64,000 nucleotides of DNA from Bugula neritina (lineage: Eukaryota > Animalia > Bryozoa): NCBI GenBank assembly GCA_964035545.1, contig OZ037766.1, positions 16,482,722 to 16,546,721 of the forward strand, given 5' to 3'. Position numbers and translations under genes: made by a program. Below, piece after piece: positions 6,342 to 64,000 of the stretch. How positions within the stretch are numbered: position 1 is the first letter of the stretch; each line of letters opens with the position of its first letter. The notes beneath the pieces were generated by a model, which was not told the DNA's origin, made no database searches, and saw only the letters and a list, made by a program, of their open reading frames with translations.

Positions 6342-7580
6342 TAAGGTGCTAGTGGATTCTCAGTGTGGATTCATGAGTGGAAGAAGTACAATAGGCATCG
6401 TTTTCTGCTCGAAGCAAGTGCAAGAGAAGTGCATAGAACAAAATATGGTACTGTACATAGTATTTTTTGACTTCAGTAAGTCTTTGACATTGTGTCTAGA
6501 ACAGGCCTTTGACAGGTCCTTAAAAAGTTTGGCTGTATAGAAAATTTTACCCGAATTATTGAAGCGTTTCATACAGGCATGCAAGCAAATGTGGCAATGA
6601 GCGGTTCCATCTCAAATGATTTTGCAGTAACAAACGGAGTCAAGCAGGGGTGTGTCCTTGTACCAACCTTTTTCTCACTTTACCTGTCAGCCATGCTTGA
6701 AGTTGCCTTTAAAGACAGCCCGCAAGGGGTATACTTAAAAACTAGAAAAGAGGCAGACCTGTTTGATGTAACTCATTTCAAGTCTAAAACTAAAACCACT
6801 ACTGAGTTGGTGAGAGCATTGCTATTTGCCGACGATAGTGCTCTTGTGGCTCATCATTCTGATGATATACAGACTCTAGTCAACAAATTTGCTAATGTTG
6901 CAAAACATTTCAGTCTTAAAATCAACATCAAGAAGATAGAATGCCTCTATCAGCCTTCAAAATGGAACATCTCAGCCAAACACCATAACCATCAAAGGAG
7001 AATCTTTGAAAAAGTGTAAAACCTTCAAATACCTTGAAAGCACAGTGGCTGTCAATGCTAAACTAGATAATGAAATTTCTCTGAGAATAGGAAACGCCAC
7101 TGCAGTATATGGAAAACTGAGGGCCAGCATTTGAACTAATCGTCATGTTTCAATCAAAATCAAGTGCTGCCTTACTATATGATGCTGAGACCTGAAACAT
7201 ATACAGTGTGCAAGCTGACGGACTGCAAGCATATGCCATGCGACACCCGGCGCTCAATCATGGGTATATCTTGGAGGGACAAGATTACTAACCAAAAAAT
7301 ACTAAGGAAGGCTAGTTTGTCATTGTTAAAATTTATTCTCATTCAGATGAACTTGGGATGGCCAGACAACTTCTTTATTTGCAGCTAGAAGAAGGTAAAT
7401 GCAACCAAGGAAGGCCCAGACTGAGATTTAAAGACACTGTAAAGTAAAATATGAAAAAGATAGATATGGACTGAGATAGCTGGCAAGGAAAGGCTAAATG
7501 TAAAGACGGATAGAGATGTTTGATTAAACCAAATTGAAAACAGTTATTCTTGCACCGACAGACTGCTATGATGATGATGA
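6342..7580 (+). mobile_element. 5'-truncated, frameshifted RTE-clade LINE (reverse transcriptase remnant)
   Basis: Broken frames give QCGF..GRST...QEKCIEQN...FFDFSK, GVKQGCVLVPTFF, LLFADD and the C-terminal GKCNQGRPRLRFKDTVK. There is a 3' (ATG)n tail at 7568-7580 and multiple stops/frameshifts. Confidence 0.88.
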
Positions 7581-7989
7581 CAAATGCTGTTTAAAAAGTT
7601 ATTCGAAGTAGTTTAAAGTCTTTTCTTATATCTTGACTCTCCCAAAATACTTTTCATGCTGAAACTTTTGAGAAAGCTTTTTAGTAGTAATGCTATTATG
7701 TTTCTAAAAATATGTTAGGCTAACCGGATAAAACATTTTAGTGCTCAAAGCCTTACATAAAATGTGATGAAATTTTTTTGTTCATGTTATTAGATTGGTA
7801 TAAAATATGTCCAAATTGTAATTGCCTTGAAAAATCAGGACCCTCCCATATTATTATGGGTAACCTTGTTATATGGTCAACATTTTGACATGAAATAAAT
7901 AATTTTGCAGGATGAGGAAGTTCATACACATGTCTCCTAGTAATATGTGTGCTGACCATTATTTGCAGGCTTAGGTTGCTGTAAATAAA

Positions 7990-15800: not shown

Positions 15801-18800
15801 GAATCTAGACTCTAGATTCTTTTAACTGTGAAGTAATCAGCCTCAAACCATTGCTGGATGAAGTGCCTACACTTAGCTGTGAAGCTACTGCAATAACGTC
15901 AACAATTTTACTAATGAGTTTTCAATACATGTTTTAGTCAGTTGGGTAAAATACAAAGGTTCTCTGGTATATGCTAGAATAAATGATGATTAAACATTGG
16001 ATTTAATGAACATTTTTTCATATTGTGTGATGCAACATGATAGTTACAGAAAAAACGCTGATCCCACTAAAAATGTAATGAAGGCATTATATTTCAACAC
16101 TGACTGCATACAACATTGTTACCCACAGAATATTATCCATATATGAGTTTGTATTTTGCAAAATAAGCATCGAGTCTGAGCTGCCATTTTCTTTCACTCA
16201 AAAACCAATAATATCAGACTTTAGCTTACAAAGCATAGTGGTATAGCACATGCATATACAATAGCACACCAAAAAAATATTATAAAGTGCTACACTTTAT
16301 TGGTTACCAAGGGTGGCTGCAGAAAGCACAGCAGACTATTATAATATTTTCTAAAAGAGGTGCAAACAGTAAGCCTACACCTCCAGGACTATTTAGGATA
16401 TCAAGTCTTTTATGGGTTGATTGCTCTTTTAACCTGGATTCTAAGGATAGCAATTAATTTAGTTTAGAGTTACTGCATTCTAGTCAGTTGAAAATGGCCT
16501 TTCTTTCCAGGTGGCATGGCCAGGAAATAAGTAAATACTGTAGGAAGATCGCCATGTAGTAGAAATAGGTGTGCTCCGGAAGCACTATAGTGAAGTTTTA
16601 ATGGCTGGCATATGGTATTGGATACTAGCCCTCAGAATGTTTTTGTCATCTTCCTGCCTCAATGGTGGTTGATGATTACTTTGAGTGAGGAAAAACATGT
16701 ATTGAAAACTCATTAGTATAGCGTCAGAGCTAGGTGCAGATATTTCCTCGAACAATGACTTGAGACTGGGAAGCTCACATTAAATATCACTTAAAAATGA
16801 AGCAAGCTGCTAACAAAATTACTTCATAGTTGAAAAAACTGGACTATATTGTCCTATGGCTGATGGCATTGCATTTGTGGGATAAACATGGTGTTTCACT
16901 AAGGAAATCATGTACAAATTGGTGATGATACCAAGTAACAGTATAGACTAGCATGCCAAGCACTACAGGTTAAAGCTCATTTTTATATAAATCGTCTATG
17001 TTGTCTATTGCTAAAAACTGTGCATTTTAACTCCTGCAAAAAAATATGCAACCAAGTTAAAAAAAATTACTGTTGTAATTTTTTTAAGTAAAATAATGGT
17101 GGGTACATAAGCAACTAATTTATGCTTAGCACATGCTTATACATGTGTTCGTCAGTGTGCTGTAAATATATGCTAGTGATGATAAATATGGTGCAGCACT
17201 GCCATTACAGTTCGCTGACTGTGCTATGCTATTGCTACTGTTTTGCAATAGTAACAACAGTGTTTGATTTGCTGCACCTAAACAGTGTCTACCTTTGATG
17301 AAATCACCTAAGTTAGAACAGCCTGCATATAGTTGATGAAAAACTAAGTCAGAAAACTGGCATAGCAATATAAGCCAAAACAGATTTTGTAATACTAATA
17401 ATTTCCCCATACACTGAAGTGTTGTAGATGACTACAGCGTGATCAGACTATAAAACTCAACCAAAAAAGGGGTGTGTACCAACTCTAAAATATAACCCTA
17501 TAACTTATATAAAACTCTACATTTTCAAACGCAAATGAATTATTAGGCCAATCAGATACAATCATTAGCTGGTCATGTAGAGTCCAGCCAATCAGAATTG
17601 TATAAACTTGCAGCCAGCCAGCGTGCTACCCATCTGCCAAAAACAACCAGCCCATTTACCACTATGTCGATGAAAATGTCATTAAATGTGTTTTGCCAAA
17701 ACAGCTGGGGCTGTGGTCAATTTGCACCAGGGTATTTTTTTAAACTTGTACTTTTTATTTGCATTTTTTAAGCACTTAAATTAAACATTTTGAAAAATGA
17801 ACTCATGATTCATAAATTTAGGATATGAAATATAATAATGCATGTAATAAAAGTTGCACAGCTATTTCCTAGAAGTATGCATTTTGCATTTGAACTTGCA
17901 GAAGTTTATATAAGTTATAGTGGTGAGTATTCTAGAATTGGTACAAGGTACTAAATGTACCAAACTTACATGGTCTATTGCTCTAGTCTTTTCAGTAGGA
18001 TTTTCAACAGTTTGGGGTTGTCTTCTCTATCAATATTTCCGTCGACAGTGGTTTAAGTAAATTATTTTGCCTACATTTTAAATTTATAAGCCTTTAGTGT
18101 GCCTTCCTAATGCCTGGACAAAACTTTTTACTGCTATAACTTATTTATGTTTTAGGAGTAACTAGAAATTAATTGTAATCCTATTGTTACACCAACTAAT
18201 AACAAAGTTGTAGTGAAAAGAGCAATTCGATTTACTTATATTGTGATTGATACGATTCTGAAATAATTTTTTTTTAATATAACTTAGAAAGCATTCAATT
18301 TAGGAAAAATAAAAACTGAAAATCTAATACCTGATGCTGTATTATACCCAACATATTTTGATATAAGCTATAATATTCAGCCATCTGCTAGGGCTTTTAT
18401 GTTTCAGTATATTTCAATCAGCAATAGTTTTGGGAAACAAGTTATAATTTTTTTACTTTTATTTTGATGAACAAGATACAAATACCCAGCTAACAATCTT
18501 TTAAGTGCTGAAATAATGACATTAGGAATTTTAGTTCAGTTACAAAAACTTGAAGTCTTTTGTAATTCATGAAAGATTGTGTCAGTTTAGTCAACTGGGG
18601 TCGAAAAATTGGTAACTTTTTTTATTGGGTACAAATTTATGTTTTCCACATACAATAATGTTAAATTTTTCCTGCAAGGGGGTGCCTTTAACCAAATATA
18701 ATATTTCTATATACAGTTTTGCAAATAACTATTTGTTATTATTCACCCGATAATATGTCTTGTTATTTGCAGAGGCAAATTCTTAGAGCTGTGCCAGTCA

Positions 18801-20940: not shown

Positions 20941-23900
20941 TCAACTTATATGAGAATGGGGTATTGTCCTACAAGCTGTGCAAGTGTCACAAGCTGATGA
21001 ACCTGGAGTTATTCTTCCATTTCCTGCTTGCTGTGCAGAAAACCTTAGGAATTCATCTCGTTCCTCAATATTAGTTGCCATATAATGATTCTCATCATAT
21101 ATCTTATGATATGGTTTATTTGGTGCATTTGGTAAAGGCCTCTGGGCCTGCATCTGGGACGCTTGCAGTGAATGGAGGCTGACTGGATATGGGCCATTTT
21201 TATCACTGCCGTTGCTACTGCTGCTATATTCGCTCATTACTGGTGTAGAATACTGCGTTGCTTTTTTTCGACGGTAAACGCAGAAATGTAAAGTGACAAC
21301 TGTAATGATGAGTGTGCTTATGAAAGTTCCTAATATGGCACCCACCATATCCACTAAAGTGAAGTATTTGATTTTTAGGTAGTGTGTTTCTGTATTGGCT
21401 TCAGATGTCGGGTTAGATAGGATTACATCTTTAGATGTTGCTTGGGAATTACATCCAACACCATTATCTGAACCACCAGCACTTGATGCTTGAAATGGCC
21501 AGTCCACATTAACAGAGAGTGAAATATTGCCACCGTCGTTGGAAGCTACACACCTATACTGTCCCAGGGTCCCTGGTTCATCAGCTAACAACTCTATCTC
21601 ATTTCGGATGCTGTCTTGATTACCGATTGGATCCTTTTCTACAACGACACCATTAGGCCTGTACCAGGAAACCTTGGGTAGTGGAGTACCTCTAGAGATG
21701 CAGGCTAGGGTACCCTTGTCTAGAGAGAAAGACAAGTCAGCTTGCAGCGTCGGCATATCACATGAGAAATCAGCAGCAGACAAACTATCAAAGTATTGCC
21801 CAGTCACATGATCTGGTCCATCACACCGAGGTTCTTCTTTGGTACCCTCCATGGCATCCCGAATTATTGTTGTCTGCGAGTTTAAATCATAAAACTCTTT
21901 GAGCCATTTTGATTGGCAATCACAAATAAGGGGATTGCCATAGATTCTGATGGCTTCAACTTTACTGAACACATCCAGCATGCTTCGGTCAAACCGAGCA
22001 ACCTTGTTACCTTGCAGCATCAGTCTTCGGAGTTTGTTAGTTGACAGTAGAGGCTGGAAAATGTCGGCGGCCAGGTGTTCAATCTTGCATTGCGCCAGGT
22101 TTAATATTTCTGTGGACATTCCAACAAAGGAAGAAGTTGTCAGTTTAATATAGTGGTTTTCTTCAAGATAGAGATAGTTCAATCGGAGGCCAACAAGGGC
22201 GCCTGTGGAGATTATGGCTATGTTGTTGGATGACAAATCTAGAGTGGTTAGTTTAGTCATATCTAAAACAAAAGATAACATAAAATACAATAAATGTACA
22301 AACCAATTGTAAAAGGTTACATTAGTACAGGGTACACGCCCAACTTGAAATATGGTGCAACATCGTATTGTGGCAATATTTATAAATAAGTTCAGCTTAG
22401 AGACATAGTTTCCCTTCTACTAGTGTAGAGGCTGCTGTAATGTGAGTGAGTTTAGCGAGACTCGGTGAGTTAAGTCCACAAGTGACTCACTCCAGTACTG
22501 AATCATGGTGATAGCCAATTAAATCACTTCAGTTTTGATATCTTGTAATTTGTTTTTAGTAAATAACTGAGTAGGTCAAAGGCTTTGTACACACTGGCAC
22601 TTTTTAACAAGCTAATAGGCTGTCTGAATTTCACAAATGTGAGAACATCCTTCCTTATACAAACACCAGTTTAGTGATACATGTTTGATTAGCATCATGA
22701 CCGTGGCATATCATCCTAGCTCATTTAGAAACTTTATAAATTCTTTACAAGAATCATCAAAACCTAATCATACAAACTAAAATGTTACTTGTATCGTTTA
22801 CTGCTTGGTATTTATAAGATGGTGAATAGCAAAACAGTTATTGAGAATTAGTTTAAGAAATGCATTCACTCACAACTTCAACATTCTTCTGATGTTATTC
22901 GAATATCATGATGTAATAGATTTGTAGTAAGCCAAGTGTGTAATTATTTTACACTGATTAGTAAACTTGTTTACTTAAAACTCAACATTTCATTCCAAAA
23001 TAAGCTTTATCAAAATTTGTGAAAATTTTCAAACTTGCCATATTTGCTTTTAAAAGAACCATTTTATATGATTACGATGCTACAAGCTCATTCAGGGCAG
23101 ACTGTGTAGTCATAGAGTAAAATTTCTCATATCCAGTCTGATCGAGTCTCCATCAGTTACAGACCTAAAGACTTACAGCTTTTGCTCTTTTGTTAAAAGA
23201 TATAATTTACAGTATAAAACAATCTAAATAGTTAGAGGCTGTGAAGTAAATCTAGACATAGTAGTTTTGCATTAGAAAAAAAGAAACTATTTTATCAGCT
23301 GACCACATCACTAGACTCAGTGTTTTGAAAGACTCCAATATGGCTGCTAATCAGTTCTAATTAAAATTTTCAAAGATAGCTGGAAACTGAAATGAAGAGG
23401 CCCTTATTGTCCAGTATAAAGAAGCCCAAGCTTTTTTGCTCAGTTGAGGAAGGTAAACCATAAAGGGTTGAATCTGAATAAAATATGCTTTGATCATTTA
23501 ACAGGACACTTGAGTTGACTGGTCCACTTGACAGTCAACACTCCCATTGATGCAAGGCACCTTAAAAACAACAGTTTCTGCTTCTGCTACTCAAAAGTGG
23601 ATTTTGGTGCATGTTGGCTTCATTTTTGGTTATAACTTTAAGGTTTTTGGTTTGGCAGTAATATATTATTTGCTTCTAGACAATGGTTTTACTAAGCTAT
23701 TGAGTCAAGATTGCAGCACAACAATGACACCACCACTAAAGGCAGGAAATTCTCCAAAAGTGTTTACATTTTCTCTAATAGTTTATATAATTGTAGTGAT
23801 TACCTGCACAATATTCTGCAATCTTAGAATTTACAGGTTTGTCCATTAAAGACTAATTAGCAGGCAATTACCCAGGTGCACCAACAGCACACCAGGTGAT

Positions 23901-25896
23901 GCACAGAATCATTAGCTCTGCCCTTAAATCATGGCTTATCAATGAGTCAACAAGTCACTTAAACCAATTCCAGGATTTTGTTGACATATAAACAAATTTA
24001 TAAATAAAACCACAGAACATTTATAATAGAACAAAATAAATTTGCTGGCAGTATAATTGGCTTAAACAAATTTAGTAGTTTTTGAGTGAGGGCCATTAAT
24101 TAATTTGCGATAATGTAATGATAATGCATGCATTATATTTCAGAATCTTTAAAACTTGTATAGATATTCCACTTGTATCCTGTATAAGCCCACACCCTAC
24201 TTTATTAGTTTTCCAGTGATGATACGGAGTTGTCATTGCTTGCATTAAAATCAAAAGTTTTTTAAAGAAAAAACTTTTGATCAAGCAGTCATTTGAGTAA
24301 ATTAATTGCTTATTGCAGTGGCACTAGCCATATAGCAAGTTTTTCTAAACTGATTCAATAACAGTATATTAAGCAGTCTATTAATGCCTTTCTAAGGAAT
24401 GGTGGTTTAGCTTAAAACTTCAACCATTGCAAAACTACCCAATAGAAATACATCCCAGCTATATAATATCTGGAGGTTTTGCTTAGTAGCCAAGGAATTT
24501 TGCTATCTTGGTCTCCTTGAAATTGAGTTGCAACATTTAGCTCACTTTTTGCATTACTTTAGCATGTGTAGGTGTGCAAGCGTTGGCTGGTAAGAATATA
24601 TAGAAGAGAAATGCTAATGCTGGTTAGGTTTACTCAAATATGTAGAAACTGTAAAGTTCCTGTAACAATATTATAGAAGCGGTAACCTATAAGTTCATTA
24701 TTACACACTTGAATGAAAATTTAATATTTTTTTCTTTAGAATATGTTAAGATAAATGGTAGTCTGCATTAAATCAATAACTCAAGTGGGTACATGTAGAT
24801 CACATTGCAGCATATATTAAATACAGAAGGATTACTTATAGAGGTACTTGACCCATAATGTAAGTAATAAACCACCTTAGAGCATTGACTAATATAAAGC
24901 CTATTTACTCCTCTTAAAGTACTTCTTACAGTGAAATTTAGTTTAATTATTGGTGATTACAAATCATGGTATAAAATCTAATGACTGCCTCACCTAAGTT
25001 CTATTAATACAATAACTTTAAATTTGTTTTGTATATGACACCCAAAACTTAAAATGCTGAAATATTTTTTAGGAAGAACAACGATTTTTTTATTTATAAC
25101 AAATGTCAAAGCTTGGCAGATAGACAGGATTGACACTTGGCATTCTGTCTTGACAGCTAGTAGCAGGTTGGTGAGATGTTTTGCTGTTTTTTGATGAGAA
25201 GTGCATTGAGTGCATTGGAAACTAATTACCAGTGTAACCAAATCTTCAAAGACTATACTCAAACCACATTTTCTATTTTTGAATCTTTCTTCTACTTGAG
25301 AGGCATGTTTTAATAGTGGCCCTTAAATCTATTGATTATAATACTGTTCTTTTGATACACACTAGTCAGCTCTTGAAATATCAGTTACTCACTAGCCTGA
25401 AGAGTTTTAAACGTAACCATAGTTTCAAATGGTACAGTCAAATGAGTACAACTCAATCGACCAAAAGGAAAACCTTGTTATTCTATATGTGAATAACAGT
25501 GTAACTCTAGAAGAAAAGAAACCACACCTCTAGTTACATCACCAGCATAACATAGTGCTTTTGAAAGAAAGTTACAGCTTGAGATTTATTGCTGGCAAAC
25601 TCACCTATGAATGTGTGGTAGTTGATGGAGGTAATGCCACAGCCTTTGAGTACCAGATGTTCCAAATTCACATAGTTGGTGAAGTTCTGTCTTTCCAATA
25701 TGGGATTTGTAAATCTATTGAAACTAAGATCTAACTGTTTAGTTTGAGAGTGTATAAGAGGAAGTGATGTCACAGAAGACTGCTCACACTGAGCTCTAGA
25801 ACATCCTGGCAAACACGTGCAGCCATTTATATTATCTATATATTGTGAATATGCAAATGCTGGAATGGTTAGCAGAAGTATTGCTGAATAAAACAT
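20941..25896 (-). CDS. LRR- and Ig-domain single-pass transmembrane protein (LIG family; kekkon/LRIT/LINGO-like architecture), ~537 aa
   Basis: Coding exons 25896-25605 (donor GTGAGT) and 22262-20941 (acceptor TTTTAG) join in phase 1, giving a continuous 24-aa LRR register (..NYHTFI-D-MTKLTTLDLSSNNI). Domains are signal peptide MFYSAILLLTIPAFAYS, LRRNT CTC...C, ~7 LRRs, LRRCT GNPLICDC, Ig LAC..G.P.PKVSW...GQYRCVASN, TM VGAILGTFISTLIITVVTLHFCVY and a cytoplasmic tail. An acceptor at 25991-25992 implies upstream UTR exon(s). Confidence 0.88.
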
Positions 25897-26600
25897 GTTG
25901 AGTTCGGTTGCTTGTCTCTGTGTCAGTGAGAGAGCCTGGCTGTTCCGAATATGACGGTTCCTAGAGAAGTTCTACCACCAAATCATTTATCTGAAATATA
26001 CCACAATGTAATAGATGTACTAGCCTGCAGTAATATAAGATACACTAGTTGTAGCCCTGCCAGCCTAAAGATGAATGTGATATTTATACAGCTCCAATAA
26101 AAGTATAAACATATCATTTATCAACAATAAACTTAGCAGTTACCAGCTGTAAAATGCTAAAGTTGCAGCTGAGCTTTCTGTAACTGCTACTGTGCTATAA
26201 AAACCTAATTACAGCCATAGAATCCTAAAAGCATAGCGCAAGCCTTTTTATGGCACATGGGCAACCAGACACCTAAACCTCAGCATAGACATTTTGCCAA
26301 TATTGACTTTGACACACTGCTATACTCTCACTGTTAGTACTGTCTTGTTTTCTTTTCACAATATGGTGGAAAGTGATAAAATAGTCTAATCAGTGATAAA
26401 TTGGTCATGTAATATCTATTCATTAGGCTGTCAGTTGAACAAAAGTGGCAGCTTAGCATTGATAAGTCTGTCAAAGTGGAGGCAAGTGGCCTAATTACGG
26501 TGTAAGCATTTCCATAACTGATCTATGCTAAATTTTTCTCATATATAGGTGTTGACACCTTCTGGTGTGTGTGATCAAATATTATAGTACTTCTTAACTA

Positions 26601-29600: not shown

Positions 29601-32600
29601 CAGATACTGCGTTAAGAGTAATAAATTAATATTTCCATAAGACCCTCCCCAGAGTGTGGCCATAGATGCAGCCAGGGTGAAATTATGCAAAAGTTATAAC
29701 TAAAAGTCATATTGGCACATCGTGATTATATACAGTGTCACTGCAGTTGTATAACATTATGCAGAAAAGTGAATTTAAATTTAAATTAATGCTAGCTTTT
29801 TATTTATAAAACAGAAGGTTTATTTTACAATTGAGTTCATAACATTTGACGTATGCTTCACGAAAAGAGAGCCAGAACCTGAAATTAATTTATTGGTAAG
29901 AGACTTGGCTAATGCCCTAATAAAATAGATGGTGGTTAGATGATGTAAAACTAGTTGCTATTGTGCAGCTTTATAGCTAATTATATGTTTAGAAATTATA
30001 ATTATCTAACATTGGTAAATGTAAATCCTGCATTGTTTTTATAGTTGTATTCTTGTAATGGTCTTTACTATTTTATCTTTCAATGCTTAAACTCAGAAAC
30101 TGAAAGAGAGTCGGGGTGCTACTGACACTGACACACAATAATTACACTTACAGCTACAGAATAGGATTGTCATCATGATCATTAAAAAATACATTTGATC
30201 ATCGATGATTTTTCAACTGGTTACTGATATGATAACCACAATAAAGTCACTTTTATGCAGTGTGGTTCTACCTTTACCAACCAAAGTTGGCTACAACTAA
30301 ACATATTAGTATACTGTAGTAGTATTAGCATTACTATTACAGTAATTCTATTACTATTACTAGTATTAGTATTAGACTTAATATTACTATAAGTATTAGT
30401 ATAACTATAAGCATAAATATTAGTACAGCTATAACTGTTGCCATTGTTAAATTAATATTTTATCATTTGTATTTCTTACCAATGAAACACGAATCTTCAA
30501 TTCAAATGCCTCGACTCTGAAAAGGTATGTGCGTGCTACTATCCGTAAAGATGGGCTGATATATTTGTCTCCTTGTTACAACTAAGCTTTAATACAACTA
30601 CGAGAGGAGAATAGACTTGCTAGCTAGGCAGTTTTGGCCACAAATGATTCGACTAATTATCTGTCAACATTGAAGTGCATGGGAATTCATTCTGCCTTCT
30701 TATTGGTTGAGCGTATTAATAGCCAACACTTGTTTATATACCGCGGTTGATGTATTATATTATAATGGTACTGTTCGCGCATCACGTTACTTGAGTTAAT
30801 AAACATGGTGACTTCACGTGAACCTTGCACCAAGTTGTCAAATTCTGTATTAGTCAAGTCTCGTAACAACAACAAAAATAAACATAAGATGACTGTACCA
30901 GCAGTATTACAGTGCAATGCAATTTTTCTGTTGAAACTTGTTTGTAACATTGTTTAACTTTTAAAAGGAAAGAATAAGCAACCATGGAGAAAGAAAGGCA
31001 GCACTGATGTAGTTCTGGTCATCCTAGAGGCTATTTATAAAGTCAGACATAATGCACAAAATCTACAGTCAAGGTTGGATTGTTGGTTTAGTTGTGTTGC
31101 AAATTAAGAAATAGATTTGTCACAATTCTACAAGAAATGCCAAGTTTTATTTACGTGCGACATCATGCTCATCACAGCTGAAATCCACAACATTAAGGCA
31201 ATTAATCATATAAGCTTTTAGACTAGCAGCTGCCTAAAGTAAAGCCAAGAATTTGCTGGTTATTACACTAAGTATTGGTTACCTTGAGCCCACAATCTTG
31301 GAAAGATTCTAAATGCCAAGAAGTCCTCAGCTAAAATATAAGCCGTGCAGTTCAGGTACAAACTTGTGTTTCTATATTATAATAATCTAATAAAAGTGTG
31401 ACAGGTGCTCCATGGCTAGATAAAAGATATATGTGTATGATAATTTCTAACTCAACAATGTGACAAATGCTGGTAACAGTATAACCTGCTAGATTGTTTA
31501 CATTCCTAGCTCAAAGAAATGCAAGATATCTCAATATCTATGAAGACTCAAATTACAAAAACTTGTCAATGCAACTCACTGTGGGTAATGCAACTTTGTC
31601 AGATTAGTTTTGTGGAGTGGGTCTGATCTTGAGTGTAATATTCAGTGACACCAAAAGTAATAGCAGACCATAAAGAAGATGGCACTACATATTTTCCGTA
31701 AAGCAGATTAGATAGTTCATAACAGAAGGTACCTGCACTCACTTGAAGCAGTCTTCACAACTGGATTAGCCAGTATGTTTAGTTTATCTTAAGATTTATG
31801 TCAGCAGTCGAGTCTGGAGTATCTAAAACCTGACCCAATGCTAGTTGTCAAGGATTTGCTGAAAGACTGAATCTTATGTGTAAACAAATCACAAAGTCTA
31901 TGTTCAAACATTTTAATAAGTATTACTACAACTCATGGGTTGTAATCTAAAAGCTATACATGATGAGTGATGGGCCTGTAACAAGATTAGGTAACACTTG
32001 GTTCAAGTTATTCAACAAGTGTTGAAATGGAAACAGAAGTAACTTAGCTAGCTGAAGATTGATGGAAGCAACTGCAGCATACTAAAGGTGTTGAAATATA
32101 ATAGTGTTACCCTGAGTTCAAAGTCTTGCTAGGCTAGCCTTTTACACTTTACTTATAAGGAACATTATATCAAAGTCCCTAAAACAATCTAACCACCTAG
32201 AATTCTGGAAGAGAAACAAACAACTTGGTTTAAAGCAGGTCTTGGTTGAACTACTCAAAGAGCAGCAAACCTCAACATTCATTATGTTAGATCTTGCAAA
32301 AAATTCTAGATTAAAGTTATAGGTTACCAAAATCCTGCAAATTCATTAAAAATTAAAACAACTGTAAAGCAAATAGGGCTACAGGAAAACAACAGGCATT
32401 ATGATCATTGAACTTCTCTGCAAAGTGTTAAAACAGCCTCAATAAATTTATTAGACTGATGCTTTGCTGTTTACTTGTCTTTTATTGCTACAACTATGCT
32501 TGTGACTAGAAAAGATTGACTGAATGTGTAAAGCAAATTTTGTAAGGTAAAGGAGGGGATTGCAATTTAACGAGTTGTGTTAGCCATTATTTCAAATTTT

Positions 32601-56035: not shown

Positions 56036-56573
56036 TAACTATTTCCGAAAATTCAACCATTACCTACAAGTGTGATGACATAGCGCATGAAACATGAAAA
56101 ACAAATGATGCCTCAAATGCATAAATAATATTATTATATAGTATATAGTATAGTATAAATACTAAAACGATTTAGATGATAATAAAATTATCATAAATTA
56201 AAATACACAATCATTTTACGATTATTAATTAAAATTAAAATAACTTAAACTATGCCACGACTGTGAAGATGGATAGTTAGAACTTAGATATAGGGATCAC
56301 TGATTTAAGTGATTATCATTATGATTATATTTCCAATTGATATTATTAGTTATTAAATTTAACTAGTATCAGTATCAGTATGAGTATCAGTATGATTGTA
56401 TGGGTATGATGTGTGGTCATACTTATAGTGATAGTCAAACTCAATCACAATGACAATTTCATACTGATACGACAGTCATACTCACAGCACTTGATCACTG
56501 ATCAGCATTAGTATGACTATGAGTATGAGTATCACCATTATATTTATTATCATTATGACTATGAGAGTAATAG

Positions 56574-56879
56574 TGTGGTGGTTCGTGGAACTACCAGCAG
56601 CACAACATGTAGGGTCGCGTAATTGACCCGGAACAATGGATAGCCAATTAGCGTAGTTGATAGTTAGCAGCAATTGTAGTTTCCCGCTGCTAACTCAGTC
56701 GAAGCTAGAGTGTGAAATAGATTAGATGTGTAACTTGTTGGAAATAATGTATCGTGTTTTTGTAATGTATAGTTGTGTATAAAATATACTCGTTCACTCG
56801 ACTTAGCCTGGTGTAGTTCTATACTAGATAAATAGACTCTCTGGATAGCATATCAACCCTAAATCTGAAAACTATAACA
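56574..56879 (+). repeat. 5' LTR (306 bp, TG...CA)
   Basis: It starts TGTGGTGGTTCG and ends ACTATAACA, 1 nt before the PBS. It matches 63769-64000. Confidence 0.92.
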
Positions 56880-56880
56880 G

Positions 56881-56898
56881 TGGTGGCAGCAGTGGGAT
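56881..56898 (+). promoter_or_regulatory. Primer binding site complementary to the tRNA-Leu (AAG/TAG-type) 3' end
   Basis: TGGTGGCAGCAGTGGGAT is the reverse complement of ...AUCCCACUGCUGCCA-CCA, the usual metazoan tRNA-Leu acceptor end. Confidence 0.8.
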
Positions 56899-56910: not shown

Positions 56911-57870
56911 ATGGAGACTGAAAATGCTGAAACTCAACCACCGGCAATCGAAGGTGAGCGTAGAGACAATGCTGTAGAGACAATGCCTGTTAACCATGTA
57001 GTAGAAGAGCGAAGGGTTCCGCGAGAACTAGCTGAAGACCGCTACAGGTTAAAGGCGCCCACCTTCACGGGTGAAGAGGAGGTGGAACAATTTATTCAAG
57101 AGTTTAGCGACGTAATGGACGTCGCTCAGTGGCCCCCTAGGGTGGCCCTGCTGAAGCTTAGAATGGCATTGATGGACAAAGCCAAGCCCTATGGGCTGGG
57201 CGTAGACATTGATAATATCTTTGCTTCTCTGCGGGCCCGCTTTGGCCTCTCGGCTACAGATGCCAGGGCCCGATTACAGAGGTTGCGGCGTGATCCCCGC
57301 ACCCCGCTGCGGGAGCATGCCGCCGCGGTCATGAAGCTGGCACAGATCGCGTACAGCGACTTGCCCCCAGTCAACCGCGAGAGGTACACCCTCGACGCTT
57401 TCATAGCATCTGTCGACGATCTGGGTCTCCACCACCAGTTTCTAGCTAGGGGAGTCACCACCGTTGAAGATGCTCTGACTGAGGGGGAAGCTTACCTCCT
57501 AGCTAACCAAATGCATAAAAGTCGCGGAAGCTCCCGCCAAGTGGAGATAGACCGCGCAGACACGGCCGCGGGACAAGGGGAGGAAACCCCCGCCGCGGCT
57601 GCCGTGTCCCAGTTGGCGACGGCATCAAAAGTCACTCAACTGACGGACATGCTAGCCAAGCTGATAGCAACACTGACACCACAAAACCCAGTGAGTACCG
57701 CCCCTGAGCCCATGCGGCCATCGGCGCCGCCACAGGGGGAAACAGTCAGTTTTTGCTGGGAGTGCGGAAATCAAGGACATTTCTGCCGATATTGTCCCTT
57801 CCTAAATCAGGGGTTAAACTACCGCGGCCCGCAGATGTTCCCACCTTCCGCGGGCCGACGAAACCTCTAG
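56911..57870 (+). CDS. gag: Gag polyprotein with CCHC zinc knuckle
   Basis: 319-aa ORF right after the PBS. It has a capsid-like LKAPTFTG..VEQFIQEF...W segment and the CWECGNQGHFCRYC knuckle. Confidence 0.9.
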   Translation: METENAETQPPAIEGERRDNAVETMPVNHVVEERRVPRELAEDRYRLKAPTFTGEEEVEQFIQEFSDVMDVAQWPPRVALLKLRMALMDKAKPYGLGVDIDNIFASLRARFGLSATDARARLQRLRRDPRTPLREHAAAVMKLAQIAYSDLPPVNRERYTLDAFIASVDDLGLHHQFLARGVTTVEDALTEGEAYLLANQMHKSRGSSRQVEIDRADTAAGQGEETPAAAAVSQLATASKVTQLTDMLAKLIATLTPQNPVSTAPEPMRPSAPPQGETVSFCWECGNQGHFCRYCPFLNQGLNYRGPQMFPPSAGRRNL

Positions 57871-60800
57871 GGAAGAAGAAACGCAGGTCACCCAGACGGG
57901 TACCGCGTACTGGCAACCAACAGTGGCAACAGCCACGACGGACCAGCAAGGGGCTTCGCCCCGCGGCTGCCTTTTCTATGCCCCTTCACAACAGATTCAC
58001 AGGGCTACAAGTCCAAGAATCTGGATGGGAGCACACAAAGGTAGCTGAGAATCTAGCCTCGGCACCCCCGAGGCCTACCTATCACCGCCCCAAGAGACCT
58101 CCTTCGCGACCCAAAGCGAGGGAGGTACTCCCTGCGAGAGTAGGGCCTGAAGGGAGAGTTCGGGTGCAGCCCCATGGGAACAGCTATTTCTTGCCCGGTA
58201 AACTGGAAGGCAAAGCTGTTACTTTTCTCATTGATTCGGGCTGTACCACAAACCTCTTAAGCCGCCAACTCTTTGACACCCTCAGTGCTAGGGTCAGGGG
58301 CGAGATGGAGGCATACGAAGGGGAATACGGCACCCTAGCTGACGGGTCGTGCCTTCCCTTCTATGGTATAATTGAGCTGACGGGACGAGTCCGCGATCAA
58401 ACGATCCAAGAGACGTTCATCGTCAGTCAGCTCAAGGAGGATGCTATCCTCGGGATGCCGTTCCTTAAACGGCACGGATGTCACATAGATTTTAGCAGAT
58501 CTGCAATGATGATGTCCGGGCGGGAACTCGCCTGCGTCGACAAGTTCGGCTGCCCTTTAGTGGGAGGTGTGCAAGTGGTACGCAACCGTACCATACCAGG
58601 CCGCTCCCGGGCTACCATTCACTGCAGGGTGAATAGTAGCCGGATCTCTGGACTCGGGGTGGTTGAAGGCGCGCACGAAAAGATCCAACTTGCCAGCAGT
58701 CTGAATCAGCTGACTGAGCAAGGGGAGATCTTAGTGCAGTGCGTCAACCCCTTTACCGAGCCTATCAAGCTCCCGGCTGGGTCGATGCTGGGCCGTTTTC
58801 ACTCTGTTCAAGAGGGAGACGTAGGCCCGTCGCTGGGTGATGCGACAGAGGCACTCCCTCGACACCCTATTCAGGGACGAGGGGCAGTCCCAACACATCT
58901 CCGGGAGTTATACGAAACAGCCAGTGGCGGCTGCGCGAGTAACAGAGAGCGCCAAGCTATGGTCAAGTTACTACGCGACTACGGTGATGTGTTCAGCAGC
59001 GGAGAACATGACGTGGGACTGACTGGAATTGTCAGACACGAAATACCGCTGACTGCAGGGACAGTCCCTGTCCGGCAGCCCACACGCAGGCTGGGGCCGG
59101 AGAAAGAGAAGGAGGTTAGCCGACAAGTACGGGATCTTCTGGACCGGGGACTGATAGAGCCCGCCCATAGTGCGTGGAGCTCGCCAGTCGTACTGGTCCG
59201 GAAGAAAGACGGCAGTTGGCGGTTCTGTGTGGACTACCGCAAACTCAATAGCGTAACCATACAGGACGCCTACCCTCTACCTCGTATTGACGAGTCATTG
59301 GACGCCCTAGCCGGCAGCAAGTACTTCAGTACGTTAGACTTGCTAAGCGGCTATTGGCAGGTTCCTCTGAGTCCCGACGCCCAAGAGAAAGCGGCGTTTA
59401 TCACACGGGACGGGTTGTGGAAGTGGAAGGTGCTGCCCTTCGGGTTAACCTCCGCCCCAGCCACCTTCCAGAGGCTGATGGAACAAGTCCTTAGCGGACT
59501 CCATTGGAAGACACTGCTGGTCTACCTCGATGATGTCATCGTAATCTCTCCAGACTTCGAGACACATGTCAGTCGTCTGCAGGAGGTTTTCGAGAGACTC
59601 CGAGGTGCCGGTCTTAAGCTCAAACCTTCCAAGTGCGCTCTGTTGCAGCCGGAGGTCAAGTACCTGGGGCACGTTGTCGGTCGAAACGGCGTGGCAACGG
59701 ATCCCGAAAAGGTACGGGCAGTAGAAGACTGGGTCACCCCCCAAGACTTGACCGGACTCCGGGCTTTCTTGGGGCTGGTAGGGTATTACAGGCAATACAT
59801 ACCAGACTTTGCGGGCATAGCCCAGCCTTTAAACCGGCTTACCGCAAAGGGAGTGACGTGGCAGTGGACCCCAGTCGAACAAGAAGCGTTCGACCGCCTC
59901 AAGGGCTGCCTCCTAACGGCGCCCATCTTGGCCTACCCAGACCCCACTCTGGAGTACATCCTAGACACGGACGCCAGTGACCAGAATGTTGGCGCTGTGC
60001 TGTCACAAGTGCAGGAAGGCCGAGAAGTAGTAGTAGCCTACTACAGCAAGTCTCTCTCTCCCGCTGAACGAAATTACTGCACTACCCGCAAGGAACTGCT
60101 GGCAGTAATCAAGTCAGTGAAGCACTTCAGACCATACCTATATGGCAGGAAGTTCCGGCTGCGTACGGATCATGCCTCGCTGATCTGGTTGTGCAGGAGA
60201 GCAGAGCCCTCTAGTCAGGTCGCCCGGTGGCTCGAAATCCTAGCTGAATTCTCATACCGGATCGAACATCGACCGGGCAAGAGACACAGCAATGCGGATG
60301 GGTTGAGTCGCCGACCTGACGGAGGTTGCAAACAGTGTCTCAACATCGAGAGGAGGGATGGAGGTCCCCCGCGATGCGAGTTGGAGACGCTGGCTCATCA
60401 CGGAGCACCGTTTGACTGGGATCAAGGTCAACTCAGGCAAAGAGTTGATGAGTCCCCGGAGGATGTACAAAACCTCCGCGCCAACCCTGTACTGGCCGGT
60501 AATGTTCGAGAGCTGAAGAAGCTCCAAGAAGAGCTGCCTGGAGTCGTGGCAGACATATACCGGGCCAAAAGGGAAGGGCGACGACCCAGCGAGGAACGCA
60601 TACGACAGGGATGCGCCGAGTTCCGGCTATACTGTCAGCGTTGGGACTCGCTGCGGATCGGGCAAGATGGGTTGCTAACCATCTCTCTAGCTGCCAGCGG
60701 CAGACACCCGGAAAGGAAGAGGGTAGTCTGCCCCACAGCCATCCGCCGTGAGTTGATTTGGGATACTCACAAGCAGGCCCACGCAGGGGTCAAGCGAGTG

Positions 60801-62381
60801 ATATCCAAATTACGACTCCGGTGGTATTGGCCGCAGATGGAGCGTGACGTCCGGCTCAGAGTCAAACAGTGTGAGATCTGCCAGGCCAGTAAGCATAGCC
60901 GCCCCCCTGGTGAAGCAGGACGGCGGAGGCTATATGCTGGTAGGCCCTGGCAAGTAGTCGCTGTAGACCTGGTCGGACCCATGCCCCTGACCCCCAGAGG
61001 CAATAATTGGATACTAGTACTAACCGACCACTTTACTAGGTGGGCGGATGCTCTGGCTATCCCAGATGCATCAGCCCCAACAGTGGCCAGGGCACTAGAC
61101 CAACATGTATTCTGTTATTTTGGACTTCCCGAACAGATACACTCTGATCAAGGCGCTCAATTCCAGTCTCAACTGATGAGCGACCTTTGCCACCTCTGGG
61201 GAGTAAATCAGAGCAGGACCACCCCCTACCACCCTCAAGGTAACGGGGTGGTGGAGCGCAACAACCGGATGCTAGGTGATGCGCTCCGGAGTCTCCTCCT
61301 TGGACGAGGTCAAGAGGAATGGGATACGGTGTTGCCGCAAGTCATGCGTGCATACCGTAGCACCCCACACACCAGTACTGGTGAGACCCCAAACCTCTTG
61401 ATGCTCGGGAGAGAGACTCGTGTCCCTGACCATCTCACCTATCACGTTCCAGAGCAAGACAACTCGGTTCACGAGTATGCCAGTGAACTAGTGGAACGGA
61501 TGAAGGCCGCACACGATATACTGCGTCAACAGCAGTGGAAGGTGCGGCACGAAGATTCCGATGAACCCCCTCTCTATCAAAGGGGAGATAAGGTGTGGAT
61601 GGTCAATTACCGTAGGCGCCGCGGACAGGCTGATAAGCTGAAGCCTAAGTTCGTAGGCCCCTACGTGGTCGTCGAGGCTATGCCCAATCATACGTACAAG
61701 ATCGAGCGCTCAGGACAGGTATCCATCCAGAATGAGTCTCGCTTGAAACCGTATTGGGCTAGCCCCGGCGGAGTGGGAGAAGCCCCCCCGTTGTTAGAGC
61801 CCAGAAGGCAGACAACAACGCGCGGGCGACGGCGGCATGGACCTGAATACGAAGTGGTCATACCGCGGGAAGAAAACTTGGTGAGAGAAGAGCGGCAGCT
61901 TCTACCAACAGAAGCGTATCCGCCACCGCCAAGTCTAATTCCATCACTTCCAGAAACCGAGCCGGTTCCGGAAGTGCAAACCCCCGCGGAGGGAGGGGCT
62001 CCATCCGGAGAACAAGAAGAGGTGACTGCTGACGGTGAAGTAGAGACGCCATTAGAGGCCCCTACTAACGAACCGGCAAGCGTGTCACCCCCCCTAGAAA
62101 GGGGACAGCGTACGAGGCAACCCCCCGCATACTTGAAGGACTTCGTATGTGACTGCGTTAAAAGCGGCACACATGAAAGTCTAGGGGGAAACCGTACGAG
62201 AAAAGAATCGAGCAAATGTGGGAGTTGTCAACACCACGGAAATATCAACTTTTGTATCGGCGGAAATAGAAACAAAATTTATCCGCCGGGTGCACAAAGT
62301 CTTAATCACGCACCCCAACCACGTTGCTCGATCTTTTCATACGCTGATGCAGTCAAGAGTAGACGTGTTTCTAAGCAGTAG
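57753..62381 (+). CDS. pol: Pol polyprotein (protease, RT, RNase H, integrase), probably translated as a Gag-Pol fusion from ~57819
   Basis: Motifs are FLIDSGC (aspartic protease), WRFCVDYRKLN/LPFGL/YLDD (RT), LDTDASD...ELLAV..TDH (RNase H), and H-x3-H...C-x2-C with VDLVGP/SDQG/VERNN (integrase DDE), plus KFVGPY (GPY/F). There are no internal stops. Confidence 0.96.
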   Translation: MLGVRKSRTFLPILSLPKSGVKLPRPADVPTFRGPTKPLGKKKRRSPRRVPRTGNQQWQQPRRTSKGLRPAAAFSMPLHNRFTGLQVQESGWEHTKVAENLASAPPRPTYHRPKRPPSRPKAREVLPARVGPEGRVRVQPHGNSYFLPGKLEGKAVTFLIDSGCTTNLLSRQLFDTLSARVRGEMEAYEGEYGTLADGSCLPFYGIIELTGRVRDQTIQETFIVSQLKEDAILGMPFLKRHGCHIDFSRSAMMMSGRELACVDKFGCPLVGGVQVVRNRTIPGRSRATIHCRVNSSRISGLGVVEGAHEKIQLASSLNQLTEQGEILVQCVNPFTEPIKLPAGSMLGRFHSVQEGDVGPSLGDATEALPRHPIQGRGAVPTHLRELYETASGGCASNRERQAMVKLLRDYGDVFSSGEHDVGLTGIVRHEIPLTAGTVPVRQPTRRLGPEKEKEVSRQVRDLLDRGLIEPAHSAWSSPVVLVRKKDGSWRFCVDYRKLNSVTIQDAYPLPRIDESLDALAGSKYFSTLDLLSGYWQVPLSPDAQEKAAFITRDGLWKWKVLPFGLTSAPATFQRLMEQVLSGLHWKTLLVYLDDVIVISPDFETHVSRLQEVFERLRGAGLKLKPSKCALLQPEVKYLGHVVGRNGVATDPEKVRAVEDWVTPQDLTGLRAFLGLVGYYRQYIPDFAGIAQPLNRLTAKGVTWQWTPVEQEAFDRLKGCLLTAPILAYPDPTLEYILDTDASDQNVGAVLSQVQEGREVVVAYYSKSLSPAERNYCTTRKELLAVIKSVKHFRPYLYGRKFRLRTDHASLIWLCRRAEPSSQVARWLEILAEFSYRIEHRPGKRHSNADGLSRRPDGGCKQCLNIERRDGGPPRCELETLAHHGAPFDWDQGQLRQRVDESPEDVQNLRANPVLAGNVRELKKLQEELPGVVADIYRAKREGRRPSEERIRQGCAEFRLYCQRWDSLRIGQDGLLTISLAASGRHPERKRVVCPTAIRRELIWDTHKQAHAGVKRVISKLRLRWYWPQMERDVRLRVKQCEICQASKHSRPPGEAGRRRLYAGRPWQVVAVDLVGPMPLTPRGNNWILVLTDHFTRWADALAIPDASAPTVARALDQHVFCYFGLPEQIHSDQGAQFQSQLMSDLCHLWGVNQSRTTPYHPQGNGVVERNNRMLGDALRSLLLGRGQEEWDTVLPQVMRAYRSTPHTSTGETPNLLMLGRETRVPDHLTYHVPEQDNSVHEYASELVERMKAAHDILRQQQWKVRHEDSDEPPLYQRGDKVWMVNYRRRRGQADKLKPKFVGPYVVVEAMPNHTYKIERSGQVSIQNESRLKPYWASPGGVGEAPPLLEPRRQTTTRGRRRHGPEYEVVIPREENLVREERQLLPTEAYPPPPSLIPSLPETEPVPEVQTPAEGGAPSGEQEEVTADGEVETPLEAPTNEPASVSPPLERGQRTRQPPAYLKDFVCDCVKSGTHESLGGNRTRKESSKCGSCQHHGNINFCIGGNRNKIYPPGAQSLNHAPQPRCSIFSYADAVKSRRVSKQ
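57813..57875 (+). promoter_or_regulatory. Predicted -1 programmed ribosomal frameshift signal (G_UUA_AAC plus stem-loop/pseudoknot)
   Basis: The heptamer 57813-57819 is in gag codon phase, followed by a 5-nt spacer and an 8-bp stem 57825-57832/57850-57857. Loop CTTCC (57845-57849) is complementary to GGAAG (57871-57875). pol is in the -1 frame. Confidence 0.7.
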
Positions 62382-62694
62382 TTCAAACCATTTCACATAT
62401 TCAGTATGTCTTACGACAACAGATCGTGGGGTGAGTTAACTATATCTTAATACGAAACTAGATTGCATCGCTTAGCTCTGACCCACTGAGTCAATCGAGC
62501 TGGAGATAGGTTAGTGAAATACCGTGGTAAGAACTCAGTTTGACTTAGAGATTTTTATAATCTCATTGCAATACGGTTCTATCTGACTATTCACTATCAT
62601 TAATCTCTACGAGGTAACTGAATTAGGAGTTGCCAAGCTGTTCAAGCTGACAACACAGCAGTGTACTGTACTAACACTGTTGAAACTTTTTCAG

Positions 62695-63482
62695 ATTACA
62701 CTCGACCCGCTATAACCAGGGTACGGGATAGAACACTTCCCGCTCCGTATCCGGAGGACTATGCTAGTGGTGACCGGCCTGAGCCACTACGCCGCCGTTG
62801 GCGGTGGGTGTCTCCACAAACCGAAGAAGAAATAGAAACAGCCTGGGGGTCCAGAGGACGGACGAGATGCCAGATATGTGGTGAAGATTGCGCCTCCCAC
62901 CGCTCCCTTAAACTACACGTCAATGCTCATCTCCTACTGACCTTCTGCCCCTGCGGGTACAATGATGTGTATCCCTACCCCGTCACCAGACACAGAGCGG
63001 CGGGCTGTTTCCCTGGAGAAAACTACGTGGTCGACGCTAAGCTATACCCGGAGTTCCTCACACTTATACGACCTCTGGTGAAGAAGGCTATGCTATTAGC
63101 CGTTCTGTCCTCGGGGTTCCAACGTGTGTTAGACAACGCCCGCCAACAATCCCCGTTGGTGTCTGACCGTCCTCAAATTACATACACCCCCGAGGAAATT
63201 ACATATCCAGAAGAAGGAGAGATCTCCCCTACACCGGCGAAGAGACGAACCAGGTCCCCCAGTCCACCCTTGCGCCGCAGACGGACACCGTCCCCAGACC
63301 CAGTAAGCCTGGCTACAGTAGAAGAACGTCTCCTACGATTACAAGAGGAGTTCACCCAGCTGGCACCAGATCTACTTAACACTACAACAGGACTCTTCCA
63401 GCTAAAGGGATCCGTATGCCGTATGAAACGGAAACTGCGTACATGCCAAGCCAAGCACCGGCGTGCCCGACAAGGACTCTAG
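62695..63482 (+). CDS. Retrotransposon ORF3: non-env zinc-finger/basic/coiled-coil accessory protein, predicted second exon of a spliced subgenomic mRNA (first exon 56911-56953)
   Basis: The open frame 62661-63482 has no ATG before the fingers. It has branch point TACTAAC 62669-62675 and acceptor TTTTTCAG ending 62694 (phase 1), matched by donor AAG|GTGAGC at 56953/56954 (phase 1). A C-x2-C-x12-H-x3-H finger lies at 62868-62930. Confidence 0.75.
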
Positions 63483-63757: not shown

Positions 63758-63768
63758 GGTGGGGGCGG
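63758..63768 (+). promoter_or_regulatory. Polypurine tract (plus-strand primer)
   Basis: GGTGGGGGCGG lies immediately before the 3' LTR TG. Confidence 0.65.
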
Positions 63769-64000
63769 TGTGGTGGTTCGTGGAACTACCAGCAGCACAA
63801 CATGTAGGGTCGCGTAATTGACCCGGAACAATGGATAGCCAATTAGCGTAGTTGATAGTTAGCAGCAATTGTAGTTTCCCGCTGCTAACTCAGTCGAAGC
63901 TAGAGTGTGAAATAGATTAGATGTGTAACTTGTTGGAAATAATGTATCGTGTTTTTGTAATGTATAGTTGTGTATAAAATATACTCGTTCACTCGACTTA
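63769..64000 (+). repeat. 3' LTR (partial, truncated by window end)
   Basis: All 232 bp are identical by eye to 56574-56805. Confidence 0.93.

What the first reader, a model, noticed from the sequence alone, without database searches (positions are those of the whole stretch)
56911..63482. Gypsy retrotransposon with a spliced, non-env zinc-finger accessory gene (complex-retrovirus-like organisation)
Seen: after pol, in the position env occupies in errantiviruses, is a 273-codon open frame whose first ATG lies downstream of its zinc fingers. Near its start is a perfect branch point TACTAAC (62669-62675), a pyrimidine run and an AG (62693-62694). Fourteen codons into gag is a strong donor AAG|GTGAGC (56953/56954). 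Both junctions are phase 1, so removing the 5741-nt intron gives METENAETQPPAIE-D-YTRPAIT..., a ~276-aa protein. It has a canonical C2H2 finger (CQICGEDCASHRSLKLHVNAH), a second C-x-C-x12-H-x4-C finger (62946-63008), a basic SP-rich tract and a C-terminal coiled coil. It has no signal peptide or TM segment, so it is not Env. Established: Drosophila gypsy expresses env from a spliced subgenomic RNA, and complex retroviruses express nuclear regulators (Tax/Tas/Rev) the same way. Inference: this is an element-encoded nuclear regulator (LTR transactivator, anti-silencing or RNA-processing factor) that I do not recognise in Ty3/Gypsy elements.
Basis: partly seen in the sequence, partly recalled or inferred. 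Interest (0 to 1): 0.92.

Follow-up and report, generated by a model that had tools for sequence, protein, structure and literature searches.

The report
Spliced zinc-finger gene in gypsy retrotransposon
A young, intact jumping gene of an invertebrate carries, where retroviruses keep their envelope gene, a conserved extra gene for a double zinc-finger, coiled-coil protein that is joined to the start of gag in one sister copy, and this protein likely works in the nucleus to control the element's own RNA, as a different protein does in the worm element Cer1.

Summary
The element is an intact Ty3/Gypsy retrotransposon (LTRs identical at 232 of 232 comparable bases). Its donor and acceptor are the best-scoring sites in the element. 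ORF3 is a real gene: 65 close and 104 wider homologues keep two zinc-binding motifs in a confidently modelled domain (pLDDT 94). That domain has no Pfam family and no significant structural match, and it also occurs in bryozoan proteins. One sister protein (P0020) begins with 14 residues identical to a sister Gag start and continues into ORF3 at exactly the predicted junction, on a contig too short to hold the intron. Splicing of this copy itself was not seen. The protein is not Env.

The organisation is not new: C. elegans Cer1 makes CERV from a spliced gag-sharing mRNA, and CERV is needed to export the unspliced RNA. This scan also noted a similar layout before on other DNA, with an apparently unrelated protein. 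The protein here has a different build from CERV. Function is untested: RNA-fate (Rev/CERV-like) regulator about 45%, LTR transcription or anti-silencing factor about 30%. Verdict: new variant of a known kind.

The parts
56574..56879 (+). 5' LTR, 306 bp, TG...CA, TATA-like box at 56778
56881..56898 (+). primer-binding site, complementary to a tRNA 3' end ending in CCA (tRNA-Leu assignment is recalled, not from a call)
56911..57870 (+). gag, 319 aa, with a C-x2-C-x4-H-x4-C knuckle near the end; its first 43 nt are exon 1 of the spliced gene
   Evidence: 129 homologues
56951..56959 (+). splice donor, cut 56953/56954, encoded as the E-G-E codons 14-16 of gag
   Evidence: best of 377 GT sites; E14 36 of 37, G15 33 of 38, E16 38 of 38 in alignment A5
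56954..62694 (+). predicted 5741-nt intron holding nearly all of gag and all of pol
   Evidence: joined form in sister protein P0020
57813..57860 (+). likely -1 frameshift signal: slippery heptamer in the right register followed by a GC-rich stem
   Evidence: stem z -2.1, 6 of 200 shuffles as good
57708..62381 (+). pol frame, uninterrupted: protease, RT, RNase H, integrase, SH3-like tail
62669..62694 (+). branch point TACTAAC, T-run and acceptor AG
   Evidence: best of 238 YAG sites; no variant listed at 62641-62709 in run X2 against 17 at 62710-62849
62695..63482 (+). ORF3 / exon 2, 262 codons including the split codon
62766..63149 (+). compact double zinc-finger domain: C2H2 finger 62868-62930, C-x-C-x12-H-x4-C finger 62946-63008, flanked by a conserved Trp helix and a V-D motif
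   Evidence: model pLDDT 94.3, pTM 0.86; ligand columns 78-100% conserved in 108 rows
63318..63476 (+). C-terminal helix with leucine heptads (predicted coiled coil)
63758..63768 (+). polypurine tract
63769..64000 (+). 3' LTR, cut by the window end; 232 of 232 bases identical to the 5' LTR

Best explanation
This is an intact Ty3/Gypsy retrotransposon with a conserved third gene, which is likely expressed by splicing the first 14 gag codons onto ORF3 and whose zinc-finger, coiled-coil product likely acts in the nucleus as a Rev/CERV-like switch that lets the element's unspliced RNA escape splicing or leave the nucleus. Shown: the anatomy, the conservation of the gene and of its metal ligands, the joined form in one sister contig, and the absence of a membrane anchor. 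Predicted: the fold and the coiled coil. Inferred: strong splice sites make the short mRNA the default product. Its protein would oligomerise through the coil, bind the element's RNA through the basic face of finger 1, and shift output towards full-length RNA for Gag, Pol and packaging. Proline-directed phosphorylation of the linker might tune this.
For: Joined form: P0020 starts with 14 residues identical to the start of sister Gag P0129 and then enters ORF3 at the predicted Asp. Its contig is 5320 nt, shorter than the 5741-nt intron here. Donor codons are the only near-invariant residues in the first 44 of Gag (37 of 45 exact E-G-E), in both a 14-codon and a 10-codon leader class. 15 of 186 non-gag proteins held read F/L-S/L-D/G across the acceptor. 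Linkage to gag: 3 of 12 ORF3 contigs of 5.5 kb or more share their exact length with a gag contig, against 0.06 expected. Finger 1 has conserved basic residues on its helix (K/R 78% and 81%), but a hydrophobic residue just before the first His (83%), where base-reading fingers usually carry a DNA contact (established knowledge), and only 5 residues separate the fingers. A heptad tail is present in 42 of 71 longer homologues against 1.3% of shuffles. The protein has basic clusters and 9 S/T-P sites. Precedent: Cer1 CERV has the same layout, a Cys loop, a leucine zipper and an S-P switch, and is required for genomic RNA export.
Against: There are no functional data. No convincing nuclear export signal was found: the two pattern hits lie inside the folded domain. 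The top-ranked zinc-finger matches, all weak, are mostly DNA-binding tandem C2H2 domains (Kaiso Z 3.7, SALL4 3.5, ZBTB38 3.3). No response element was established: two strongly folding intron regions (z -6.7 and -6.2) fell to z -2.0 to +0.7 under a codon-shuffle control, and 3 of 5 variants in them break a pair. Simple retroviruses and errantiviruses export unspliced RNA without such a protein (established knowledge). The S/P-rich basic tract is not conserved in most sisters. The joined form was seen in 1 of 184 family proteins, and its DNA could not be read.
Confidence: 0.45

Rival explanations
1. The spliced product is a DNA-binding transcription or chromatin factor: a dimer that binds the LTR and activates it or keeps silencing off it (Tas/Tax-like, or like the VANC anti-silencing proteins; both comparisons recalled).
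For: The architecture is zinc fingers plus basic linker plus zipper. Residues of about 30-83 align with DNA-bound tandem C2H2 pairs at about 3 A over about 50 residues. The family profile hits C2H2 transcription-factor fingers. Dimerisation would give four fingers. The same domain occurs in annotated bryozoan genes.
Against: The structural matches are weak (Z under 4, no Foldseek hit at E 0.001). There is no canonical inter-finger linker, the fingers are packed in a larger globular domain, and a base-contact position is hydrophobic. No acidic activation region is evident (linker and coil are net basic).
Confidence: 0.3
2. The product is a particle-associated or integration-associated adaptor, or a copy-number limiter: it binds Gag, integrase or a host chromatin protein and steers insertion or restrains the element.
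For: Double zinc fingers packed into one domain often bind proteins (established knowledge). The insertion sits in a hexamer-rich repeat tract, which would fit a target preference.
Against: Only 14 disordered Gag residues are shared, too few for co-assembly. One insertion site shows no preference. No interaction was tested.
Confidence: 0.13
3. ORF3 is a captured host exon carried as a passenger, with little or no function for the element.
For: Homologous domains occur in annotated genes of Watersipora and Bugula. Only 8 of 17 variants in the first 150 nt of ORF3 are synonymous, against 26-30% expected and 21 of 29 in pol.
Against: The frame and the metal ligands are kept across homologues from 98% down to about 25% identity. 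The closest named host-annotated protein compared is only 35% identical. The donor is built into gag across divergent subfamilies. The variant sample is small and lies mostly before the domain.
Confidence: 0.06
4. ORF3 is an Env or a small fusogen.
For: It has env's position and env's mode of expression.
Against: There is no signal peptide in the 14-codon leader. The best 19-residue hydropathy is 1.51, in a helix of the folded domain, and only 2 of 42 homologues reach 1.9. The protein is a zinc-finger domain with a basic coil.
Confidence: 0.02

Closest known systems
CERV of Cer1 (Caenorhabditis elegans Gypsy/Ty3 element); PMC10309623 (abstract, passages, sections 9 and 15 read) and PMC3315495 (passages read)
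   Same: [quoted passage not shown] Consensus splice sites must be skipped to make the gag-pol RNA. The protein has a Cys-rich putative zinc site, a leucine zipper, a basic NLS-like motif and S-P sites.
   Different: CERV is 517 aa from 5 exons, with H, M (C4-type loop) and G-protein-like domains, and is reported to have no homologues outside nematodes. This protein is 276 aa from 2 exons, shares only 14 Gag residues, has a C2H2 + C2HC double-finger domain and a C-terminal coil, and has no room for a G-like domain. Direct sequence comparison with CERV was not possible.
Errantivirus env (Drosophila gypsy and ancient metazoan errantiviruses; PMC13524379, passages read)
   Same: Third ORF after pol; expression from a spliced subgenomic RNA (the splicing of gypsy env is recalled; the word does not occur in this paper).
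   Different: No signal peptide, no transmembrane anchor, no fusogen ectodomain.
Rev/Rex/Rec and Tas/Tax regulators of complex retroviruses (Rev as described in PMC10309623; the others recalled)
   Same: Small regulator from a spliced RNA, with basic patches and an oligomerisation helix.
   Different: No sequence or fold similarity was found, no clear export signal, no response element established.
Additional ORFs of plant and fungal LTR retrotransposons (Grande, RIRE2, Retand, Boty, Bagy2; PMC7264820, part 1 of 3 read) and MDG1-group sORF1/sORF2 (bioRxiv 10.1101/2025.03.14.642691, passages read)
   Same: Conserved accessory ORFs beyond gag and pol, some nuclear.
   Different: These are antisense, env-like with membrane anchors, or upstream of gag and unspliced. 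In the text read, none is a gag-leader-spliced double zinc-finger protein.
Uncharacterised bryozoan proteins XP_067940964.1 and XP_067944745.1 (Watersipora subatra) and KAF6040923.1 (Bugula neritina)
   Same: Same double-finger domain (35% identity over 115 aa for XP_067940964.1), which also ends in a heptad-rich tail.
   Different: Two of the three carry two copies of the domain and they are annotated as host genes. Whether they lie in, or derive from, retrotransposons could not be read.

Membership tests
Ty3/Gypsy LTR retrotransposon | Two LTRs with TG...CA ends, PBS and PPT | tested here: met
   (3' LTR end and target-site duplication lie beyond the window)
Ty3/Gypsy LTR retrotransposon | pol order protease-RT-RNase H-integrase; RT closest to Ty3 | tested here: met
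   best solved match Ty3-G Gag-Pol, E 8.5e-120
Named metazoan Gypsy clade (MolGy, PolGy, Mag, CsRN1 and others) | Placement in an RT/RNase H tree with clade references | not tested
   no reference sequences were available through the tools
Errantivirus-type env | Signal peptide and transmembrane anchor | tested here: not met
   hydropathy maximum 1.51; 2 of 42 homologues at 1.9 or more
Errantivirus-type env | F-type or gB-type fusogen fold | tested here: inconclusive
   fold searches list no significant match of any kind; the model is a small zinc-finger domain
CERV-type accessory gene (organisation) | [quoted passage not shown] | tested here: met
CERV-type accessory gene (organisation) | Spliced mRNA sharing the Gag N-terminus | tested here: met
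   met in sister protein P0020; not observed for this copy
CERV protein family | H + M (C4 loop) + G-protein-like domains, about 517 aa | tested here: not met
   276 aa; C2H2 + C2HC domain, linker and one helix against the description
CERV protein family | Sequence homology to CERV | not testable with these tools
   no tool supplied the CERV sequence
CERV / Rev-like export factor (function) | Nuclear protein required for export of unspliced RNA | not testable with these tools
   needs experiments
Rev-like export factor | Leucine-rich export signal and a structured response element | tested here: inconclusive
   pattern hits only inside the folded domain; structure signal not robust
Classical tandem C2H2 transcription factor | C-x2-C-x12-H-x3-H finger | tested here: met
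   finger 1; Pfam match below cut-off here, 7-9 of 57 homologues at E 0.01 or better; profile hits
Classical tandem C2H2 transcription factor | Array of canonical fingers joined by TGEKP-type linkers | tested here: not met
   two fingers only, 5-residue hydrophobic spacer, second finger C-x-C...H...C

The most novel reading that the evidence does not exclude
A lineage of Gypsy elements in lophotrochozoan animals invented, independently of retroviruses and of nematode Cer1, a Rev-like or transactivator protein built on an undescribed double zinc-finger domain. The elements express it through a donor fixed in the gag leader, still copy the spliced RNA into short intron-less insertions, and have exchanged the domain with host genes such as the two-domain bryozoan proteins. 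Complex-retrovirus-style self-regulation would then be a repeated outcome in Ty3/Gypsy evolution.
Probability: 0.35. Interest if true: 0.8.

Novelty: new variant of a known kind. Interest (0 to 1): 0.6.

Why it matters
Cer1's CERV is the one case my searches found of a Gypsy element with a spliced, gag-sharing nuclear regulator. A second, differently built solution in another animal group would show that the layout arises repeatedly. It would also make a general question testable: how LTR retrotransposons with strong splice sites get unspliced RNA out of the nucleus. The double-finger domain has no Pfam family or significant solved relative, is small and well folded in prediction, and is shared with annotated bryozoan genes. 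It is therefore a tractable case of domain traffic between hosts and transposons.

Tried and rejected
No whole genome is held for this window, so sister copies could not be read as DNA and dN/dS was not computed. Locus searches found nothing confirmed: close ORF3 alignment in metagenome, viral and genome contigs, distant ORF3 alignment in viral and metagenome contigs, gag alignment in viral and genome contigs, pol in viral contigs; the broad alignment had no searchable stretch. The DNA context of P0020 and of the distant homologues is therefore open. RNA run X1 gave 20 low-depth contigs, one inside ORF3 (62843-63061) and none across the acceptor; DNA carry-over is not excluded, so it says nothing on splicing. 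Run X2 listed no loose end at the acceptor and no joint at the junction (15 of 55 joints shown; 6 of 7 loose ends shown). A search for long fusion proteins covered only 1044-2980 aa and returned 2 unrelated C2H2 proteins. Fold searches gave no significant match (best Z 3.7), which does not show the fold is new. The ESM Atlas gave unnamed or generic C2H2 clusters. Rfam found nothing in the element. A response-element reading of the folded intron regions was not upheld. The domain tree did not resolve the direction of transfer between bryozoan genes and elements (52 of 108 rows used, midpoint root). Literature searches found no description of this ORF3 family. The library lacks most subscription journals and Repbase reports, and I opened no supplements, so an existing annotation is not excluded.
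Full report
1. The element. The region is a complete Ty3/Gypsy retrotransposon in an AT-rich animal genome. The 5' LTR is 56574-56879. The 3' LTR starts at 63769 and is identical over all 232 bases left in the window. A PBS follows the 5' LTR and a purine tract precedes the 3' LTR. Gag (56911-57870) and pol (57708-62381) are uninterrupted and overlap in the -1 frame, with a slippery heptamer and stem at 57813. Pol has protease, RT, RNase H and integrase in Gypsy order, and its closest solved relative is Ty3. It is a young insertion. The host was not identified. Named homologues of ORF3 are bryozoan, so a lophotrochozoan host is an inference.

2. The observation. All coordinates of donor, branch point, acceptor, phases, intron length, first Met and second finger are right. 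The donor ranks first of 377 GT sites and the acceptor first of 238 YAG sites in the element by simple consensus scores. The gag ATG is the first ATG after the TATA-like box. [quoted passage not shown]

3. ORF3 is a real gene. A word-seeded search gave 65 homologues at 46-98% identity, and an exhaustive search gave 104 at E 0.001 or better, down to about 27%. In 108 aligned rows the eight metal ligands are kept in 99 of 107, 106 of 108, 102 of 108, 104 of 108, 108 of 108, 105 of 108, 102 of 107 and 82 of 105 rows, together with a Trp, an Ile and a V-D pair. With that alignment the 128-residue domain folds at pLDDT 94.3 and pTM 0.86. The full-length model from 42 close rows was poor in the finger region but showed one long C-terminal helix. 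A leucine-heptad tail is present in 42 of 71 longer homologues against 1.3% of shuffles, including 17 of 39 distant ones. The domain has no Pfam family of its own and no significant structural match; its core aligns weakly with tandem C2H2 pairs. Of 20 distant homologues looked up, three clusters carry organism names: Watersipora subatra twice and Bugula neritina once. Linkage of ORF3 to gag in sisters is indirect: 3 of 12 ORF3-bearing contigs of 5.5 kb or more have exactly the length of a gag-bearing contig, against 0.06 expected (all sizes: 4 of 65 against 1.2). The context of the distant homologues is unknown.

4. The splice. The strongest evidence is P0020. Its first 14 residues are identical to the first 14 of sister Gag P0129, and it then continues as an ORF3 protein from the Asp that the phase-1 junction creates. 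It is the only such case among 184 family proteins. Its contig is 5320 nt, too short for a full intron plus exons, so the join most likely exists in the nucleic acid, either as a transcript or as a reverse-transcribed copy of the spliced RNA. A deletion at the shared AG would look the same but would have to hit both sites exactly. Second, the three codons that carry the donor read E-G-E in 37 of 45 Gag homologues with a recognisable start. In an alignment of 37 chosen homologues plus this Gag they are 97%, 87% and 100% conserved, while the flanking columns 5-13 and 17-27 reach 24-76%. A protein-level role for this motif is not excluded, and 2 rows have Asp at the middle position, which would lose the GT. 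Third, 15 homologues whose called start lies upstream read F/L-S/L-D/G across the acceptor, and run X2 lists no variant in 62641-62709 against 17 in the next 140 bases. Against this, the one RNA run has no contig across the junction and very low depth, so splicing of this copy is not shown.

5. It is not Env. The leader is acidic and the best hydrophobic window scores 1.51, inside the folded domain; 2 of 42 homologues reach 1.9.

6. How it likely works. With the best donor and acceptor flanking gag-pol, the short mRNA is the expected default, and the element must somehow keep full-length RNA. Cer1 solves the same problem with CERV, the product of its own spliced, gag-sharing mRNA, which is nuclear and required for export. 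The protein here has a conserved basic face on finger 1, a non-canonical spacer and base-contact position, a predicted coil and S/T-P sites. That fits an oligomeric RNA binder, and I give it 0.45. DNA binding at the LTR is the serious rival (0.30): the weak structural matches among zinc fingers are mostly DNA-binding tandem fingers, no export signal is evident, and a response element was not established. An adaptor or copy-limiting role (0.13), a passenger exon (0.06) and Env (0.02) follow.

7. Comparison and novelty. The protein does not fit the description of CERV in size or domains, and I found no description of this family in ten searches. The passages read from two annelid LTR surveys (PMC8556966; PMC8220671) and the errantivirus survey (PMC13524379) do not mention it, and the word zinc or zinc finger has no occurrence in their main texts. 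Plant and fly accessory ORFs differ in strand, position or membrane anchor (PMC7264820 part 1 of 3; bioRxiv 10.1101/2025.03.14.642691 passages). Repbase reports, subscription journals and supplements were not seen. Earlier scan notes had no look-alike sequence. One note (e1-7499290) describes the same spliced layout on other DNA with a disordered protein said to have no relatives, and it pointed me to PMC3315495; its claims were not tested here.

8. Verdict. Observation confirmed; interpretation partly supported; new variant of a known kind; interest 0.6.

Noticed in passing
window 57813-57860: Slippery heptamer in the gag/pol overlap, in the right register for a -1 frameshift, followed by a GC-rich stem.
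   Followed up: partly
window 56954-62381: gag and pol fold more stably than shuffles over much of their length (mean z -1.8 and -1.5 under codon shuffling, ORF3 -0.9). The strongest peaks, 57950-58150 and 62080-62340, were not robust to that control.
   Followed up: partly
window 58530-58830: About 100 aa between protease and RT with no Pfam match; by position it may be a degenerate dUTPase-like spacer (recalled, untested).
   Followed up: partly
window 14401-17979: Element with very long terminal inverted repeats (482 nt at 100%, then 220 nt at 98%) and no open frame over 101 codons: likely a young non-autonomous foldback DNA transposon.
   Followed up: partly
window 20941-25971 (minus strand): Exons of a host LRR + Ig membrane-protein gene.
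   Followed up: partly
window 6513-7019: Fragment of a non-LTR-type reverse transcriptase.
   Followed up: partly
window 7961-8415: 30-nt tandem repeat that reads as G/Y/P/Q-rich decapeptides (Pfam XYPPX), probably a host exon.
   Followed up: partly
window 56340-56573: The element is inserted in a tract of AGTATN-type hexamer repeats; similar low-complexity tracts lie at about 5100-5470 and 30340-30450.
   Followed up: no
proteins P0202, P0235, P0297: Homologues with two tandem copies of the double-finger domain; two of them are annotated bryozoan genes.
   Followed up: partly
gag homologues: Two leader classes, with the donor codons starting at residue 14 or at residue 10; the shorter class may pair with the more distant ORF3 subfamilies.
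   Followed up: no
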